From the NCBI GenBank assembly GCA_947581745.1, contig CANPVW010000258.1:1-33863 (forward strand): 33,863 nucleotides of DNA, read 5' to 3'. The notes under the pieces are model-generated. The model was not told the DNA's origin, searched no databases, and worked only from the letters and a program-made list of their open reading frames with translations. Made by a program: the position numbers and the translations under genes. This DNA comes from Candidatus Benthicola azotiphorus (GTDB lineage Bacteria > Gemmatimonadota > Gemmatimonadetes > Palauibacterales > Palauibacteraceae). Position 1 is the first letter of the stretch; every line of letters starts with the position of its first letter. This document shows positions 10,957-13,218 of this stretch, piece after piece.

Positions 10957-11913
10957 CTAGGGTATCGACGCGGAATGGTCCCCGTCGGTGCACGTCCAGA
11001 AGGCCTCACCCCGGTACAGGCGCCGTCGGGCGCCGGGTTGCGCGGCCAGGATCGCCAGGATGCGCCCGACTCGTCTCGGCCACCCGCCCTCGAGAGCCGC
11101 GATGAGATCTCGCTCCCGCAGAGGATGACGGGCGATGATGTCCAGGACGGCCTCGACGGGCTGGGCGTCTGGTCGCAGTACCAGCTCGCCGCCATCGGGC
11201 GGTACCACGCTCGCCACCTGTCCGAGGATGGCCATCGCCCGGATCAGACCTTCCTCGTCCGCTCCCACGACCCACTCCTCCGCCGGCGGTCGGACGGGCA
11301 CGTTGAGATGCAGCTGGTCGGGCCGGATTCGGTCCAGTGCCCACGCGAGCTCACTCAGCGCCGATTCGGTGTCGTTGAGGTCCCTGATGAGCATCACCTC
11401 GATCCATAGCTCCGCCCGGAATACCTTCCGAAACGTCGCCAGGCCGTCGATGATGTCCGCGACTTTCAGCCGGGGCCAGGGCCGGTTGATCCGGCGAAAC
11501 GTCTCCTGGTCGGCCGCGTCGAGCGACGGGATTACGACGTCCGCTTCGACCAGGTCATCTCTCACCTCGGGGAGAAACATCAGCGAGCCGTTCGTGATCA
11601 CGGCGAGCGGCAGGTTCGTGAGCTTCCTCGCCTCCCGGATGAGGCGGCCAAGCTTCGCGTACAGGAGCGGTTCGCCCTCTCCGACGATCGTTACGTAGTC
11701 GACGGCCCCCGACCCCGATTCCGCGATCGCGTGGCCCAGCTGCGCGAGGATCTCATCGCAGGGAACGTACTCCTTTCGCTCGTTCGTCAACGGCGTGGTC
11801 CGTCCGAGTTGACAGTAGACACAGTTGTAGTTGCACGTCTTGAAAGGGACCGGATCGACTCCGAGCGATTGACCCAGACGGCGAGATGGCGCGGGGCCAT
11901 AGACACAGTTCAT
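10957..11913 (-). CDS. Radical SAM protein (COG0731-like, function unknown)
   Basis: The N-terminus [33 protein letters not shown] carries the CxxxCxxC radical SAM cluster motif in the GP.pSRRLG.SLGi context of this small subfamily. It is followed by [11 protein letters not shown] and ITNGSL (SAM-binding-type blocks). The last ~70 aa form a helical, possibly winged-helix-like tail. Confidence 0.85.
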   Translation of the reverse strand: [318 protein letters not shown]

Positions 11914-12044
11914 GATACCCCCTCATCCGCGGCAACGACGCCCAACAGCATAGTGCCGGCAACGTCGGATCGAGTTCCATCCGGTGTGGCCTTCAGGAGT
12001 CTGGATCCGCCCGGGCCCGCTCCCTTGACGGAACGTCAACTCGG

Positions 12045-12074
12045 GATATATTATGTGCATATGCACAATATATC
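12045..12074. promoter_or_regulatory. AT-rich palindromic operator/promoter candidate in the radical SAM / DUF134 divergent region
   Basis: The element reads gatatattaTGTGCATATGCACAatatatc. The core TGTGCATATGCACA (12054-12067) is a perfect 14-bp palindrome with 5-4-5 geometry. Its flanks gatatat/atatatc are also inverted, with a 2-nt bulge. TATATT (12047-12052) lies 37 nt upstream of the DUF134 ATG. This is the most AT-rich stretch I noticed in the window. Confidence 0.5.
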
Positions 12075-12088
12075 GTACAGGAGAGCAG

Positions 12089-12400
12089 ATGCCTCGTCCG
12101 AAGAAGCCTCGTCATTGTCGTCAATACGACGGAGACCTGATCTTCAAGCCCCGCAGCATTCCGATGTCCCGACTCGAGACAATCGCCCTGGAGTTGGACG
12201 AGCTCGAGGCGATGAGGCTTTGCGACCACGACGGCCTGGATCAGACCGAGACCGGGCGCCGAATGGGTGTATCACGAGGCACGGTGCAGCGCCTCCTTCG
12301 CTCGGGGCGATCGAAGGTTCTGGCCGCGCTCCTCAGCAACGCGGCGCTCATCATCGGTCAAGGAGAGAATCGTGCAACTGTGCATTCCGACAGAGGATGA
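12089..12400 (+). CDS. DUF134 (UPF0251) family predicted DNA-binding protein
   Basis: MPRPKKPRHCRQ...FKPRSIPMSRLETIALELDELEAMRLCDHDGLDQTETGRRMGVSRGTVQRLLRSGRSKVLAAL is the family consensus (MPRP.K.R...FKP.G.P...L..v.L.lDElEA.RL.D.egl.Q.eaa..MgVSR.T..R.l..AR.Kva.AL). The second half is a sigma-70 region-4-like HTH. GGAGAG lies 5-10 nt upstream of ATG 12089. Confidence 0.85.
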   Translation: MPRPKKPRHCRQYDGDLIFKPRSIPMSRLETIALELDELEAMRLCDHDGLDQTETGRRMGVSRGTVQRLLRSGRSKVLAALLSNAALIIGQGENRATVHSDRG

Positions 12401-12761
12401 TACGGGGCTGACCGGGCGGATCAGCGCTCACTTCGGCAGCGCCCGCTGGTTCACGCTCGTCGACACGGAGTCCGGCACCGCGCGCTCGGTGGCCAACCGG
12501 GACTTTGGACACCGACCTGGCACCTGCGACGGGGCTGAGAGCATCTCGGGTCTGGGCGTGGAGGCCGTGGTATGCTCCGGCTTCGGACGCAGGGCCTTCC
12601 GGTCCATGCGCTCGGCCGGGATCCCCGTGTACCTGACGCGAAGCTCGACGGTGCGGGAGGCGGTGGCGGAATTCAACATGGATCTACTGCCGCTACTCAT
12701 CGAGGAAGAGGCCTGTTCGGGCGGACGCGGCCTCGGCAGGCACCATGGACACGGACAGTAG
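12372..12761 (+). CDS. NifB/NifX-type 'dinitrogenase iron-molybdenum cofactor biosynthesis' domain protein (Nitro_FeMo-Co family), His-rich tail
   Basis: RISAHFGSARWFTLVDTESG...GVEAVVCSGFGRRAFRSMRSAGIPVY...TVREAVAEF matches the small stand-alone NifX/NifB-C domain (HFG.a..f.i.d...; G.d.vi....G..a...L...GI.vy). The C-terminus reads GRHHGHGQ. A GTG at 12372 follows AAGGAGAG. The gene overlaps the DUF134 3' end by 29 nt. Confidence 0.8.
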   Translation: MQLCIPTEDDTGLTGRISAHFGSARWFTLVDTESGTARSVANRDFGHRPGTCDGAESISGLGVEAVVCSGFGRRAFRSMRSAGIPVYLTRSSTVREAVAEFNMDLLPLLIEEEACSGGRGLGRHHGHGQ

Positions 12762-12771
12762 AGGAGGCCGA

Positions 12772-13218
12772 GTGAGCGACACGACGAAGATCGGCATCGT
12801 CATCTGTGACCGATACCGGCGTTGCGCGGGAGGCAAGTGCTTGCGGGCGATGAGGAACAGAGAGGGCGCGTTCAGCCGGTACGAGGGAGTGGAGCTCGAG
12901 CTGATCGGCTACACAACTTGCGACGGGTGTCCGGGCGGCAACATCGAGTACCTCGGTGAGGAAATGACGAAGAACGGGGCCGAGGCGATTCATCTGGCTA
13001 CGGGACTCGTGGTCGGCTATCCCCCCTGTCCGTACATCGAGACGTTCAAGACCTTTCTCGAGTCCCGCTGCGCCGTGGAAGTGGTGATCGGGACCCACCC
13101 CATTCCGGCCAGATACCTGGAGACGCACACACGCCTCGGAACGTGGGACGACCCTTCGTGGGAGCCGCTTCTCGCACCCATCATGGCGGACGCCGGGACT
13201 CGCGATGCCTACAACTAG
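12772..13218 (+). CDS. CGGC-domain protein
   Basis: KIGIVICDRYRRCAGGKCLRA...IGYTTCDGCPGGNIEY...AIHLATGLVVGYPPCPY matches the Cys pattern of the CGGC family (C..C.GG, multiple conserved Cys). A GTG at 12772 sits 4 nt after GAGGAGG, which directly follows the previous TAG. ATG 12745 is the alternative start. Confidence 0.8.
   Translation: MSDTTKIGIVICDRYRRCAGGKCLRAMRNREGAFSRYEGVELELIGYTTCDGCPGGNIEYLGEEMTKNGAEAIHLATGLVVGYPPCPYIETFKTFLESRCAVEVVIGTHPIPARYLETHTRLGTWDDPSWEPLLAPIMADAGTRDAYN

What the first reader, a model, noticed from the sequence alone, without database searches (positions are those of the whole stretch)
10957..13218. Radical SAM gene divergent from a DUF134 / NifX-like / CGGC operon: an uncharacterised Cys-rich metallocofactor-type module sitting next to cydAB
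Four families of unknown or only nominal function are packed into 2.3 kb:
- a COG0731-like radical SAM enzyme (CNYNCVYC);
- a DUF134 predicted HTH protein;
- a stand-alone NifB/NifX-type FeMo-co-binding-fold domain with a His-rich tail (GRHHGHGQ);
- a CGGC-domain protein with at least 7 Cys.

The three plus-strand genes are tightly coupled. One junction is a 29-nt overlap. At the other, a GAGGAGG-preceded GTG lies 10 nt after the previous stop.

As far as I know, DUF134, NifX-like and CGGC genes are mostly seen together in anaerobes and archaea, often with MinD/ParA-type Fe-S ATPases, and none has an assigned function. Here the set occurs in a genome segment that otherwise looks aerobic or microaerobic. 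It is immediately upstream of the cytochrome bd oxidase genes, with no nitrogenase genes in the window. One hypothesis is a small system that builds, carries or senses a metal-sulfur or other radical-SAM-derived cofactor, regulated by the DUF134 protein.
Basis: partly seen in the sequence, partly recalled or inferred. Interest (0 to 1): 0.72.

Follow-up and report, generated by a model that had tools for sequence, protein, structure and literature searches.

The report
Conserved radical-SAM/NifX-like/CGGC gene module
A Gemmatimonadota genome carries a small gene set (a radical SAM enzyme, a NifX-like cofactor-binding protein, a cysteine-rich CGGC protein and a DUF134 regulator) that recurs in many mostly anaerobic phyla and probably handles a metal-sulfur cofactor, but its actual chemistry is still unknown.

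Summary
All four Pfam families, the CNYNCVYC motif, the 29-nt overlap, the GAGGAGG-GTG junction, the His-rich tail and the 7 Cys are at the stated places.

The linkage holds beyond this genome:
- Three other Gemmatimonadota loci keep the radical SAM gene divergent from a NifX-like/CGGC operon. Two also keep DUF134 and the operator palindrome.
- Among 82 loci anchored on the radical SAM family, NifX-like genes lie within 10 kb in 36, CGGC in 13 and DUF134 in 7. They are mostly co-directional and concentrated within 2.5 kb.
- Several protein clusters fuse a NifX-like domain to this radical SAM enzyme.

In anaerobes these genes usually sit among MinD/ParA-ferredoxin ATPases, DUF59 and small Cys proteins, an orange-protein (ORP)-like neighbourhood. 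The window holds a trimmed version.

The enzyme is not TYW1, MoaA, NifB or viperin. It has only the three SAM-cluster cysteines and a winged-helix tail. The cydAB adjacency is not conserved.

The best reading is a metal-sulfur cofactor handling module under DUF134 control. The chemistry is unknown. It is a new variant of a known but unexplained kind, of moderate interest.

The parts
10957..11913 (-). Radical SAM enzyme, 318 aa. It has a single CX3CX2C motif (C27, C31, C34), the conserved N-terminal box [23 protein letters not shown], and a C-terminal winged-helix-like domain.
   Evidence: PF04055 at 4.6e-17. No NCBIfam model reaches its cut-off. Only three Cys are invariant in alignment A1. 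In the model of homologue P0096 the C-terminal region folds as three helices followed by two strands, and family members hit ArsR/TrmB/MarR HTH models there. The family has 1008 representative clusters at E<=1e-30.
11946..11977 (-). Conserved intergenic block (GGAACTCGATCCGACGTTGCCGGCACTATGCT, read towards the radical SAM gene). It may be the promoter region of the radical SAM gene.
   Evidence: Nearly invariant in the window, L001 and L006. No consensus sigma-70 match was found, so the function is inferred only.
12025..12052 (+). Sigma-70-like promoter of the DUF134 operon: TTGACG, 16 nt, TATATT.
   Evidence: 10 of 12 consensus matches. Three sites were found in the region against 0.8 expected. 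Both hexamers are conserved in L001 and L006.
12045..12074 (.). AT-rich imperfect palindrome GATATATTATGTGCATATGCACAATATATC. The perfect 14-bp core TGTGCATATGCACA is at 12054-12067. This is a candidate operator that overlaps the -10 hexamer and the transcription start.
   Evidence: Inverted repeats I3 and I4. It is the only copy in the window, even allowing 3 mismatches. The identical core sits at the same place in L001 (7280) and L006 (2491).
12089..12400 (+). DUF134 (UPF0251) protein, 103 aa, with a sigma-70 region-4-like helix-turn-helix. It is the predicted local regulator.
   Evidence: PF02001 at 4.9e-17, plus Sigma70_r4 and HTH_23 matches. NF003257 scores 60 bits, below its cut-off. The weak PDB matches fall only on HTH regions.
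12372..12761 (+). Stand-alone NifX/NifB-C-terminal-type (Nitro_FeMo-Co) domain protein, 129 aa. It has the HFG motif and the tail CSGGRGLGRHHGHGQ. Its start overlaps DUF134 by 29 nt.
   Evidence: PF02579 at 1.5e-18. PDB relatives are TM1290 1rdu (5.6e-12), PH0822 2yx6, TM1816, MTH1175, and the D. gigas orange protein 2wfb (4.3e-6). The tail is conserved in L006.
12772..13218 (+). CGGC-domain protein, 148 aa. Invariant residues are C12, C18, C23, C50, C53, C86, H74, H109 and H119. The predicted fold is a three-layer alpha/beta (flavodoxin-like) fold.
   Evidence: PF08821 at 6.4e-28. The 148-aa subfamily has at least 7998 homologues, and the listed ones are 72-97% identical across phyla. Invariant residues come from alignment A2. 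The AlphaFold model has pLDDT 77.6. The best PDB fold match has E 2.5e-3 and TM below 0.5, so there is no solved relative.
13205..14077 (+). ECF sigma factor with a Cys/His-containing C-terminal extension (...HSKQVC...FCARCH...). The probable start is at 13286. It is the last gene of the plus-strand operon.
   Evidence: Sigma70_r2 at 3.9e-20 and Sigma70_r4_2 at 3.5e-12. The same gene follows CGGC in L001, where it is read in frame with CGGC. Matching longest-contig lengths for several ECF, CGGC and radical SAM homologues (6866, 3859 and 4296 bp) suggest they share contigs; this was not checked directly.
14079..15425 (-). Thioredoxin-like (CPHC) domain fused to a VKOR membrane protein. It is convergent with the operon and is a recurrent neighbour of the radical SAM family.
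   Evidence: PF07884 at 7.2e-24. VKOR homologues lie within 5 kb of the radical SAM gene in 8 of 82 anchored loci, always on the same strand. They also occur in 5 of 80 CGGC-anchored loci.

Best explanation
The region is a trimmed, rearranged copy of a widespread gene module found mainly in anaerobes. In that module an uncharacterised single-cluster radical SAM enzyme works together with a NifX-like cofactor-binding protein and a Cys6/His3 CGGC metal-binding protein.

Most likely the three proteins make, modify or hand on a metal-sulfur cluster or another oxygen-sensitive metallocofactor. The NifX-like protein would serve as carrier of the substrate or product. The CGGC protein would act as a Cys-ligated metal or cluster donor, or as the target of modification.

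DUF134 is the local transcription factor. It is predicted to bind the 30-bp palindrome that covers the -10 hexamer and the start site of its own operon. The ECF sigma factor at the operon's end and the neighbouring Trx-VKOR gene tie expression to thiol or redox conditions.

Shown here: the gene families, the operon anatomy, the conserved operator, the cross-phylum linkage and the domain fusions. Inferred: metal binding, the direction of transfer, the chemistry of the radical SAM step and the regulator-operator pairing.
For: 1. Linkage within the phylum. Gemmatimonadota loci L001 and L006 (rSAM 79% identical) repeat rSAM <-> DUF134-NifX-CGGC with the identical operator core. L166 (65% identical) keeps rSAM <-> small CxxC protein-Usp-NifX-CGGC.

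2. Linkage across phyla. The 82 rSAM-anchored loci come from Chloroflexota, Acidobacteriota, Planctomycetota, Chlorobi, Clostridia, and ANME, Methanosarcinales and Heimdall archaea.
- NifX-like genes occur in 36 loci, CGGC in 13, DUF134 in 7 and VKOR in 8.
- 50 of 57 NifX hits are on the same strand as the rSAM gene.
- NifX density is 8.3 per 100 kb within 2.5 kb, against 1.4 per 100 kb at 7.5-10 kb.
- 11 of 13 CGGC hits lie within 2.5 kb.
- CGGC often ends 2-10 nt before the rSAM start (L019, L050, L116, L126, L133, L141, L151).

3. Domain fusions.
- P0374 has Pfam Nitro_FeMo-Co at 31.6 bits (cut-off 26.3), N-terminal to the rSAM domain.
- P0369 and P0505 match a NifX HMM at 1e-6 and 1e-7.
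- The N-terminal extension of the P0096 group aligns to a NifX-like profile with hhalign probability 96.6% and E 5e-10. It folds as beta-beta-beta-alpha-beta-alpha-beta-alpha.

4. Neighbourhood theme. Recurrent neighbours are MinD/ParA+ferredoxin ATPases (33 loci), a CbiA/ParA ATPase, DUF59 (FeS_assembly_P), DUF364 (heavy-metal chelation), ZIP, Fur and ArsR genes, small CxxC proteins, and CooC/CooT/AIRS next to a fusion gene.

5. Conservation of CGGC. The protein has six invariant Cys and three invariant His, and the listed homologues are 72-97% identical across phyla.

6. Known relatives. The NifX-like protein is homologous to the orange protein (2wfb), which carries a metal-sulfide cluster. 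NifX-like domains of MrpORP bind Fe-S clusters (PMC6345978).
Against: - No experiment or computation here shows metal or cluster binding by any of these proteins.
- The radical SAM enzyme lacks auxiliary-cluster cysteines. It cannot do NifB-type cluster fusion on its own.
- The linkage is facultative. 25 of 82 rSAM loci show none of the partner families within 10 kb. Most CGGC-anchored loci (67 of 80, many of them short) show no rSAM gene.
- The rSAM gene is alternatively linked or fused to Usp and to a methyltransferase. That would also fit small-molecule or stress chemistry.
- The window lacks the MinD/ParA-ferredoxin ATPases and DUF59 that accompany the module in anaerobes.
- The DUF134-operator pairing is inferred from position and conservation only.
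Confidence: 0.45

Rival explanations
1. This is a low-oxygen or redox-stress island. The genes are co-regulated but biochemically independent. They sit together, with cydAB, Usp, HSP20, the ECF sigma factor and VKOR, only because all are needed when oxygen fluctuates.
For: Cytochrome bd genes are adjacent. HSP20 lies at 20285-20728. Usp genes lie next to or fused with the rSAM gene in 9 loci. L002 has a DosRST-like two-component system nearby. The ORP operons of D. vulgaris are expressed only at low redox potential (PMC8359166).
Against: Domain fusions of NifX-like with rSAM and 2-10-nt CGGC-rSAM junctions point to physical or functional coupling, not just co-regulation. The cydAB adjacency is absent in L001 and in all non-Gemmatimonadota loci.
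Confidence: 0.2
2. This is a regulatory sensor cassette. CGGC and/or the NifX-like protein are metal or redox sensors whose state controls the ECF sigma factor or DUF134. The radical SAM gene is simply one of their targets.
For: CGGC directly precedes the ECF sigma gene and overlaps it. In L001 the two are read as one 421-aa fusion. The ECF sigma factor has its own Cys/His C-terminal extension. The operon starts with a DNA-binding protein and has a conserved operator.
Against: None of the 120 best ECF homologues carries a CGGC domain. ECF genes occur in only 4 of 82 rSAM loci and in 0 of 80 CGGC loci. The CGGC sequence is the same with or without a sigma factor nearby.
Confidence: 0.15
3. The radical SAM enzyme is a nucleic-acid- or nucleotide-modifying enzyme (TYW1-, MoaA- or viperin-like), and its neighbours are irrelevant. 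This is what the automatic label 'wyosine synthetase' implies.
For: JGI names many homologues as wyosine synthetase, i.e. COG0731. The weak best sequence hits are MoaA, prokaryotic viperin and TYW1. An NTP-transferase gene lies nearby in the window, L002 and L051. A TrmO_N-domain gene recurs in 14-15 loci.
Against: All family scores are far below their cut-offs: TYW1 40 vs 318, MoaA 52 vs 284, viperin 46 vs 180. There are no second-cluster cysteines, which TYW1 and MoaA need. Bacteria are not known to make wyosine (general knowledge). Structural matches are equally good to NifB, PFL-AE, TYW1 and viperin, i.e. the generic core.
Confidence: 0.08
4. This is a split NifB-like synthase. The radical SAM enzyme remodels a cluster that the CGGC protein holds in trans, for example by inserting or abstracting an atom. 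The product is passed to the NifX-like carrier, giving a non-nitrogenase complex metallocluster.
For: The domain pair rSAM + NifX-like is the NifB architecture, and it recurs here as fusions. NifB is the joint best structural match (6y1x, E 1.1e-7). CGGC offers six invariant Cys in three loops of an alpha/beta fold.
Against: The enzyme has no ligands for extra clusters. The NifB structural match is no better than PFL-AE. No target enzyme for such a cluster is identified. Most CGGC genes occur without the rSAM gene.
Confidence: 0.12

Closest known systems
Orange protein (ORP) complex gene cluster of Desulfovibrio vulgaris/gigas (DVU2103-DVU2109)
   Same: - It has a small NifX-like (Nitro_FeMo-Co) protein homologous to ORP (2wfb, E 4.3e-6).
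- It has a small DNA-binding-type or Cys protein at the head of an operon.
- The layout is two divergent transcription units.
- In related anaerobe loci the same genes sit beside two MinD/ParA-ferredoxin ATPases like Orp3 and Orp4 (33 of 82 loci).
- The function of the ORP complex is likewise unresolved (PMC6345978).
   Different: - The window has no Orp3/Orp4-type ATPase, no MrpORP, and no sigma-54 or OrpR regulator.
- It adds a radical SAM enzyme and a CGGC protein. Neither appears in the accounts of the ORP complex that I could read.
- That Orp5 (DVU2105) is a DUF134 protein is my recollection only. I could not verify it: the key paper PMC3133258 is not held.
NifB / NifX (nitrogenase FeMo-cofactor biosynthesis)
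   Same: It combines a radical SAM domain with a NifX-type cofactor-binding domain. These are separate genes here and fused in P0374, P0369, P0505 and the P0096 group. NifB is a top structural match for the rSAM core.
   Different: - The domain order is reversed in the fusions: the NifX-like domain is N-terminal.
- Ligands for the K-cluster are missing; only three Cys are invariant.
- No protein reaches the NCBIfam nifB model. The NifX-like protein scores 16.7 bits against a cut-off of 344.
- No nif genes were found in the window.
TYW1/Taw1 (4-demethylwyosine synthase; the COG0731 label)
   Same: It has a radical SAM core. TYW1 is the only PDB sequence hit (2yx0, E 0.0094).
   Different: The score is 40 bits against a cut-off of 318. 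The second Fe-S cluster site is absent. The hosts are bacteria, which are not known to make wyosine. A winged-helix tail is present instead.
MrpORP / Mrp-NBP35 Fe-S carriers fused to a NifX-like domain
   Same: A NifX-like domain is used in an Fe-S trafficking context. The NifX-like protein hits the MrpORP model only over that domain (30.7 bits).
   Different: The window has no P-loop ATPase domain. The cut-off of 450 bits is not approached.

Membership tests
Radical SAM superfamily (PF04055) | CX3CX2C cluster motif, the GGE-type SAM-binding motif, and a Pfam score above the gathering cut-off | tested here: met
   C27-x3-C31-x2-C34 and VGEGEP are present. The score is 63.1 bits against a cut-off of 29.5.
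TYW1 (TIGR03972) | Whole-protein score at or above 317.95 bits, and a second, auxiliary [4Fe-4S] site | tested here: not met
   The score is 40.3 bits. Only three Cys are invariant. PDB entry 2yx0 matches at E 0.0094 over 73 residues.
MoaA (TIGR02666) | Score at or above 284 bits, and a C-terminal three-Cys auxiliary cluster | tested here: not met
   The score is 52.3 bits. No conserved C-terminal Cys is present.
NifB (TIGR01290) | A radical SAM domain with extra Cys/His ligands for the K1 and K2 clusters | tested here: not met
   The rSAM protein does not match the nifB model, and it has only the three SAM-cluster Cys.
NifB (TIGR01290) | A NifX-like domain attached to the radical SAM domain | tested here: inconclusive
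   It is a separate gene in the window. It is fused, but N-terminally, in P0374, P0369, P0505 and the P0096 group.
NifB (TIGR01290) | A genomic context of nitrogenase genes | tested here: not met
   No nif gene was found among the window proteins scanned.
Prokaryotic viperin (NF038283 / PADLOC pVip) | Score at or above 180 bits and a full-length match that includes the CTP-binding C-terminus | tested here: not met
   NCBIfam gives 45.9 bits. PADLOC gives 44.9 bits, covering only the N-terminal core.
DUF134 / UPF0251 (PF02001) | Pfam score above the gathering cut-off over nearly the whole model | tested here: met
   The score is 62.7 bits against a cut-off of 27, covering model positions 5-95 of 98.
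Nitro_FeMo-Co (NifX/NifB-C/NafY-type domain, PF02579) | Pfam score above the gathering cut-off, and homology to solved members | tested here: met
   The score is 67.3 bits against a cut-off of 26.3. Solved relatives are 1rdu (5.6e-12), 2yx6, 1o13, 1eo1 and 2wfb.
Nitro_FeMo-Co (NifX/NifB-C/NafY-type domain, PF02579) | Binding of a metallocluster | not testable with these tools
   This needs anaerobic purification, metal analysis and spectroscopy.
CGGC domain (PF08821) | Pfam score above the gathering cut-off over the full-length model, with a conserved CGGC-type Cys motif | tested here: met
   The score is 97.5 bits against a cut-off of 27, covering model positions 1-106 of 106. The conserved motifs are C-x5-CAGGKC and TCDGCPGG.
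ORP (orange protein) complex | An ORP-type NifX-like protein | tested here: met
   2wfb matches at E 4.3e-6.
ORP (orange protein) complex | Two MinD/ParA ATPases with ferredoxin inserts (Orp3 and Orp4) | tested here: not met
   There is none in the window. The only match of my MinD-ferredoxin HMM is the ferredoxin domain of the formate dehydrogenase. They are present in 33 of 82 related loci.
ORP (orange protein) complex | MrpORP (P-loop + NifX-like, NF041136) | tested here: not met
   The score is 30.7 bits against a cut-off of 450, over the NifX-like part only.
ORP (orange protein) complex | Sigma-54-dependent control by OrpR | not tested
   No sigma-54 activator domain appeared among the window proteins scanned. 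Promoters were scanned only for the sigma-70 type.

The most novel reading that the evidence does not exclude
The radical SAM enzyme, the CGGC protein and the NifX-like protein form a split, NifB-like assembly line. It would build or remodel a so far unknown complex metal-sulfur cofactor, with the cluster held in trans on the Cys6 CGGC protein and the product parked on the NifX-like carrier. The pathway would be widespread in anaerobic Chloroflexota, archaea and others, and retained by some Gemmatimonadota that also respire oxygen.
Probability: 0.13. Interest if true: 0.85.

Novelty: new variant of a known kind. Interest (0 to 1): 0.55.

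Why it matters
NifX-like, DUF134, CGGC and MinD-ferredoxin genes are among the most common unexplained gene sets of anaerobic bacteria and archaea. Their one studied example, the Desulfovibrio orange-protein complex, still has no agreed function.

This analysis shows that a large uncharacterised radical SAM family (about 1000 clusters at 50% identity) is linked to these genes. The links are adjacency, near-abutting gene junctions (2-10 nt) and repeated domain fusion with the NifX-like domain. That gives the set a candidate catalytic step and a NifB-like logic.

The Gemmatimonadota version is minimal: three core genes, one regulator and one operator. It lacks the MinD/ParA ATPase genes. 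That makes it a compact system for testing what these proteins bind and what the enzyme does. If the product is a new metallocofactor, the consequences for Fe-S and metal-cluster biology would be considerable. If it is only an Fe-S carrier or repair set, the finding is a useful but ordinary annotation.

Tried and rejected
- Literature. Full-text searches for DUF134, 'CGGC domain', COG1342/UPF0251/COG1433, COG0731, and radical SAM + NifX + MinD + orange protein found nothing on this radical SAM family or on CGGC function. The key ORP paper PMC3133258 is not held.
- Fusion domain by simple HMM. An HMM of the N-terminal extension of the fusion proteins, run against the window proteins, gave no signal. 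Only profile-profile comparison and other fusion clusters revealed the NifX-like nature.
- CGGC fold. The Foldseek search gave only generic alpha/beta matches with TM below 0.5. A whole-chain Foldseek search of the fusion model was dominated by the radical SAM core, so it could not test the N-terminal domain.
- CGGC~ECF sigma fusion. It is seen in L001 but is not recurrent among 120 ECF homologues. I treat it as a singleton or an assembly artefact.
- cydAB as part of the module. Rejected, because the adjacency is not conserved.
- Anti-phage defence (viperin). Rejected. PADLOC pVip scores only 45 bits over the core, and there is no defence context.
- Riboswitch or other RNA element in the intergenic region. 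There are no Rfam hits except a distant tRNA.
- An ECF-type or FNR-type reading of the conserved intergenic blocks. The spacings do not fit the consensus, so no claim is made.
- Intrinsic terminators. None were found in 10600-15600.

Full report
**1. What is in the sequence**

ORF listing, the raw sequence and third-position GC give the following map.

| Coordinates | Strand | Gene |
|---|---|---|
| 8349-9437 | - | cydB |
| 9403-10764 | - | cydA |
| 10957-11913 | - | radical SAM (rSAM) enzyme, 318 aa |
| 11914-12088 | . | 176-nt intergenic region |
| 12089-12400 | + | DUF134 |
| 12372-12761 | + | NifX-like |
| 12772-13218 | + | CGGC |
| 13205 or 13286 to 14077 | + | ECF sigma factor |
| 14079-15425 | - | thioredoxin-VKOR fusion |
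| 15486-15938 | - | 4HBT thioesterase |
| 16047-17117 | + | nucleotidyl transferase |

- Radical_SAM at 4.6e-17
- DUF134 at 4.9e-17
- Nitro_FeMo-Co at 1.5e-18
- CGGC at 6.4e-28

The details also check out on the sequence. These are CNYNCVYC, the 29-nt overlap, the GTG 10 nt after the stop and behind GAGGAGG, the GRHHGHGQ tail, and 7 Cys in the CGGC protein. One correction is needed. DUF134 starts at 12089, not at the first ATG of the ORF (12053), which lies inside the promoter.

**2. The intergenic control region**

A near-consensus sigma-70-type promoter (TTGACG, 16 nt, TATATT; 12025-12052) faces the DUF134 operon. Directly on its -10 hexamer and start site lies a 30-bp AT-rich palindrome (12045-12074, perfect core TGTGCATATGCACA). 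In 65% GC DNA this is conspicuous. It is the only copy in the window, even allowing three mismatches.

The same core, the promoter hexamers and a second block (11946-11977, read towards the rSAM gene) are conserved in two related contigs. This is the classical position for a repressor operator. The first gene of the operon encodes an HTH protein, so autoregulation by DUF134 is the simplest reading. This is an inference.

**3. Is the linkage real?**

The closest rSAM homologues are from Gemmatimonadota.

In L001 and L006 (79% identity) the rSAM gene is again divergent from DUF134-NifX-CGGC. An extra 154-aa gene is inserted before the rSAM gene. L166 (65% identity) has the rSAM gene divergent from a small CxxC protein, a Usp gene, NifX-like and CGGC. 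Within the phylum, therefore, the constant set is rSAM + NifX-like + CGGC, and DUF134 is replaceable.

A scan of one genome per species returned 80 further loci. Most are from Anaerolineae and other Chloroflexota. Others are from Acidobacteriota, Planctomycetota, Chlorobi, Clostridia, Thermotogae, and ANME, Methanosarcinales and Heimdall archaea. I searched their ORFs with iterated HMMs seeded from the window proteins. Counts within 10 kb of the rSAM gene, out of 82 loci:

| Family | Loci |
|---|---|
| NifX-like | 36 |
| CGGC | 13 |
| VKOR | 8 |
| Usp | 7-9 |
| DUF134 | 7 |
| cydA | 1 |

The loci themselves supply a control. NifX-like density falls from 8.3 per 100 kb within 2.5 kb to 1.4 per 100 kb at 7.5-10 kb. 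Eleven of 13 CGGC genes lie within 2.5 kb. Fifty of 57 NifX-like genes are on the rSAM strand. CGGC frequently ends only 2-10 nt before the rSAM start.

The reciprocal scan was anchored on CGGC in metagenome contigs. It found an rSAM gene in 13 of 80 loci, many of which are short, and directly downstream in five. Many CGGC genes stand in unrelated contexts. The association is therefore real but facultative.

**4. The wider neighbourhood**

Clustering all ORFs of the rSAM loci, with Pfam scans of representatives, gave these recurrent neighbours:
- MinD/ParA ATPases with a ferredoxin insert: 33 loci, usually two copies
- NifX-like: 29
- an XRE-cupin regulator: 15
- a metallo-beta-lactamase-fold protein: 14
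- a TrmO_N-domain protein: 14
- a Gly-rich CxxC mini-protein: 13
- a 309-aa CbiA/ParA ATPase: 12
- CGGC: 12
- DUF5320: 11
- ZIP: 9
- DUF59/FeS_assembly_P: 9
- DUF364 (heavy-metal chelation): 7
- also Fur and ArsR regulators and an AIR-synthase-like protein

This is the gene set known from the orange-protein (ORP) cluster of Desulfovibrio, extended by the rSAM and CGGC genes. None of the ATPases, DUF59 or Usp genes is present in the window. The window holds a pared-down version.

**5. Domain fusions**

Some rSAM homologues are longer.
- P0024 carries an N-terminal Usp domain.
- The P0096 group carries a 108-aa N-terminal extension that Pfam misses. Its AlphaFold model folds as beta-beta-beta-alpha-beta-alpha-beta-alpha with pLDDT 70-90. 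It aligns to a NifX-like profile with hhalign probability 96.6% and E 5e-10.
- In the search of 1.84 billion representatives, P0374 has Pfam Nitro_FeMo-Co above the gathering cut-off, N-terminal to the rSAM domain. P0369 and P0505 match my NifX HMM.

At least four separate 50%-identity clusters thus fuse a NifX-like domain to this enzyme. This is strong independent support that the two proteins act together.

The fusion genes sit beside CooC-like, CooT, AIRS and a second rSAM gene. P0503 fuses the enzyme to a class I methyltransferase, and L001 and L169 have a methyltransferase directly downstream.

**6. What the proteins look like**

*The rSAM family.* It has about 1008 representative clusters at E<=1e-30. 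Only the three SAM-cluster cysteines are invariant. The N-terminal box ([23 protein letters not shown]) is strikingly conserved. A C-terminal winged helix is seen in the model and in ArsR/TrmB/MarR hits of relatives.

No curated family claims this protein:

| Family | Score (bits) | Cut-off (bits) |
|---|---|---|
| MoaA | 52 | 284 |
| viperin | 46 | 180 |
| TYW1 | 40 | 318 |

By fold its core resembles NifB, PFL-activating enzyme, TYW1, viperin and MoaA about equally. The 'wyosine synthetase' name given by one source is an over-extension of COG0731.

*The NifX-like protein.* It is a typical small stand-alone member. Its relatives include TM1290, PH0822, MTH1175 and ORP 2wfb.

*The CGGC protein.* It belongs to a fixed-length 148-aa subfamily whose listed homologues are 72-97% identical across phyla. 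Six Cys and three His are invariant. The model is a three-layer alpha/beta fold with no solved relative.

**7. Interpretation**

The evidence supports a functional module with three elements: an rSAM enzyme, a NifX-like carrier and a Cys-rich metal protein. In anaerobes it is embedded in an ORP-like Fe-S and metal-trafficking neighbourhood.

By analogy with NifB/NifX, ORP (Mo-Cu sulfide cluster) and MrpORP (Fe-S clusters on both domains) (PMC6345978), the most likely role is making, modifying or passing on a metal-sulfur cofactor. The enzyme lacks auxiliary clusters, so any cluster substrate would have to be presented by a partner.

ORP operons are transcribed only at low redox potential (PMC8359166). 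The neighbours here include cytochrome bd, an ECF sigma factor with a Cys/His tail, and Trx-VKOR. A low-oxygen or redox-controlled role in this otherwise aerobic-looking segment is therefore plausible. The aerobic-looking genes are a GMC oxidoreductase, a gluconate dehydrogenase subunit and DinB. The cydAB adjacency itself is not conserved.

I put 0.45 on this reading. The rivals are an island of co-regulated but independent genes (0.2), a sensor cassette for the sigma factor (0.15), a true split NifB-like synthase (0.12) and an unrelated nucleotide- or tRNA-modifying enzyme (0.08).

**8. Comparison and novelty**

The window is not an ORP complex, because the ATPases, MrpORP and sigma-54 control are missing. 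The enzyme is not NifB, TYW1, MoaA or viperin, because defining features were tested and not met.

It works most like a stripped ORP/NifB-type cofactor-handling set. The link between this rSAM family, CGGC and NifX-like genes was not found in any paper I could search.

I rate it a new variant of a known, still unexplained kind. Interest is moderate at 0.55. The anatomy is clear, the conservation is wide and the system is tractably small, but there is no demonstrated chemistry.

Noticed in passing
window 13205-14077 (+); L001 5289-6554 (-): The ECF sigma factor has a roughly 70-aa C-terminal extension with Cys/His motifs (HSKQVC...FCARCH). In L001 the CGGC ORF runs in frame into this sigma factor, giving a 421-aa product. 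None of 120 ECF homologues shows such a fusion, so it may be a lost stop codon or an assembly error.
   Followed up: partly
window 14079-15425 (-): A thioredoxin-like (CPHC) domain is fused to VKOR through a long, low-complexity linker. Homologues recur within 5 kb of the radical SAM gene in eight loci, mostly Chloroflexota, always on the same strand. There is no obvious reason for this.
   Followed up: partly
window 23020-25992 (-) and 26273-27904 (-): A molybdopterin formate-dehydrogenase-like catalytic subunit (Fer2_4, Fer4, Molybdopterin, Molydop_binding domains) lies here. Next to it is a Nuo51-type flavoprotein with a 2Fe-2S thioredoxin-like domain. This Mo/Fe-S enzyme is 10 kb from the module and could be a client, but no link was tested.
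   Followed up: no
L001 7465-7929 and L006 about 2675-3140: In two close relatives a 154-aa gene with no Pfam hit (MTKLKEL...TPR-like helices) is inserted between the conserved promoter block and the radical SAM gene. It is absent from the window.
   Followed up: no
window 12025-12039: The -35 hexamer is part of a short inverted repeat, TTGACG-GAA-CGTCAA. The relatives have TTGAC-N4-GTCGC at the same place. This resembles an FNR/CRP-type half-site pattern, but the spacing differs between loci.
   Followed up: partly
L167 5206-10451; L168 164-5409: The NifX-like~radical SAM fusion gene sits in a co-directional run: AIR-synthase-like, CooC-like ATPase, CooT (a nickel chaperone family), DUF1638, the fusion gene, and a second radical SAM gene. 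This hints at a nickel or Ni-Fe-S connection.
   Followed up: no
P0503; L001 9132-9545; L169 1000-1710: A class I SAM methyltransferase is fused to this radical SAM family (P0503). In two Gemmatimonadota relatives it lies directly downstream of the rSAM gene. The window has no such gene there; cydA follows instead.
   Followed up: no
window 17259-19499 (-) and 28062-30662 (+): There are two large Ser/Thr protein kinases, one with C-terminal TPR repeats. A second ECF sigma factor lies at 30743-31360.
   Followed up: no
window 19901-19975 (-); 20285-20728 (+); 20849-21784 (+); 21913-22689 (-): This stretch holds tRNA-Arg(CCT), an HSP20 small heat-shock protein, and two well-coded ORFs (311 and 258 aa) with no Pfam match.
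   Followed up: no
L002 14716-17050: A DosR/DosS-like set (a GAF sensor, a HisKA_3 kinase and a GerE response regulator) lies near a Usp- and NTP-transferase-linked copy of the radical SAM gene. This fits hypoxia-type regulation in that lineage.
   Followed up: no
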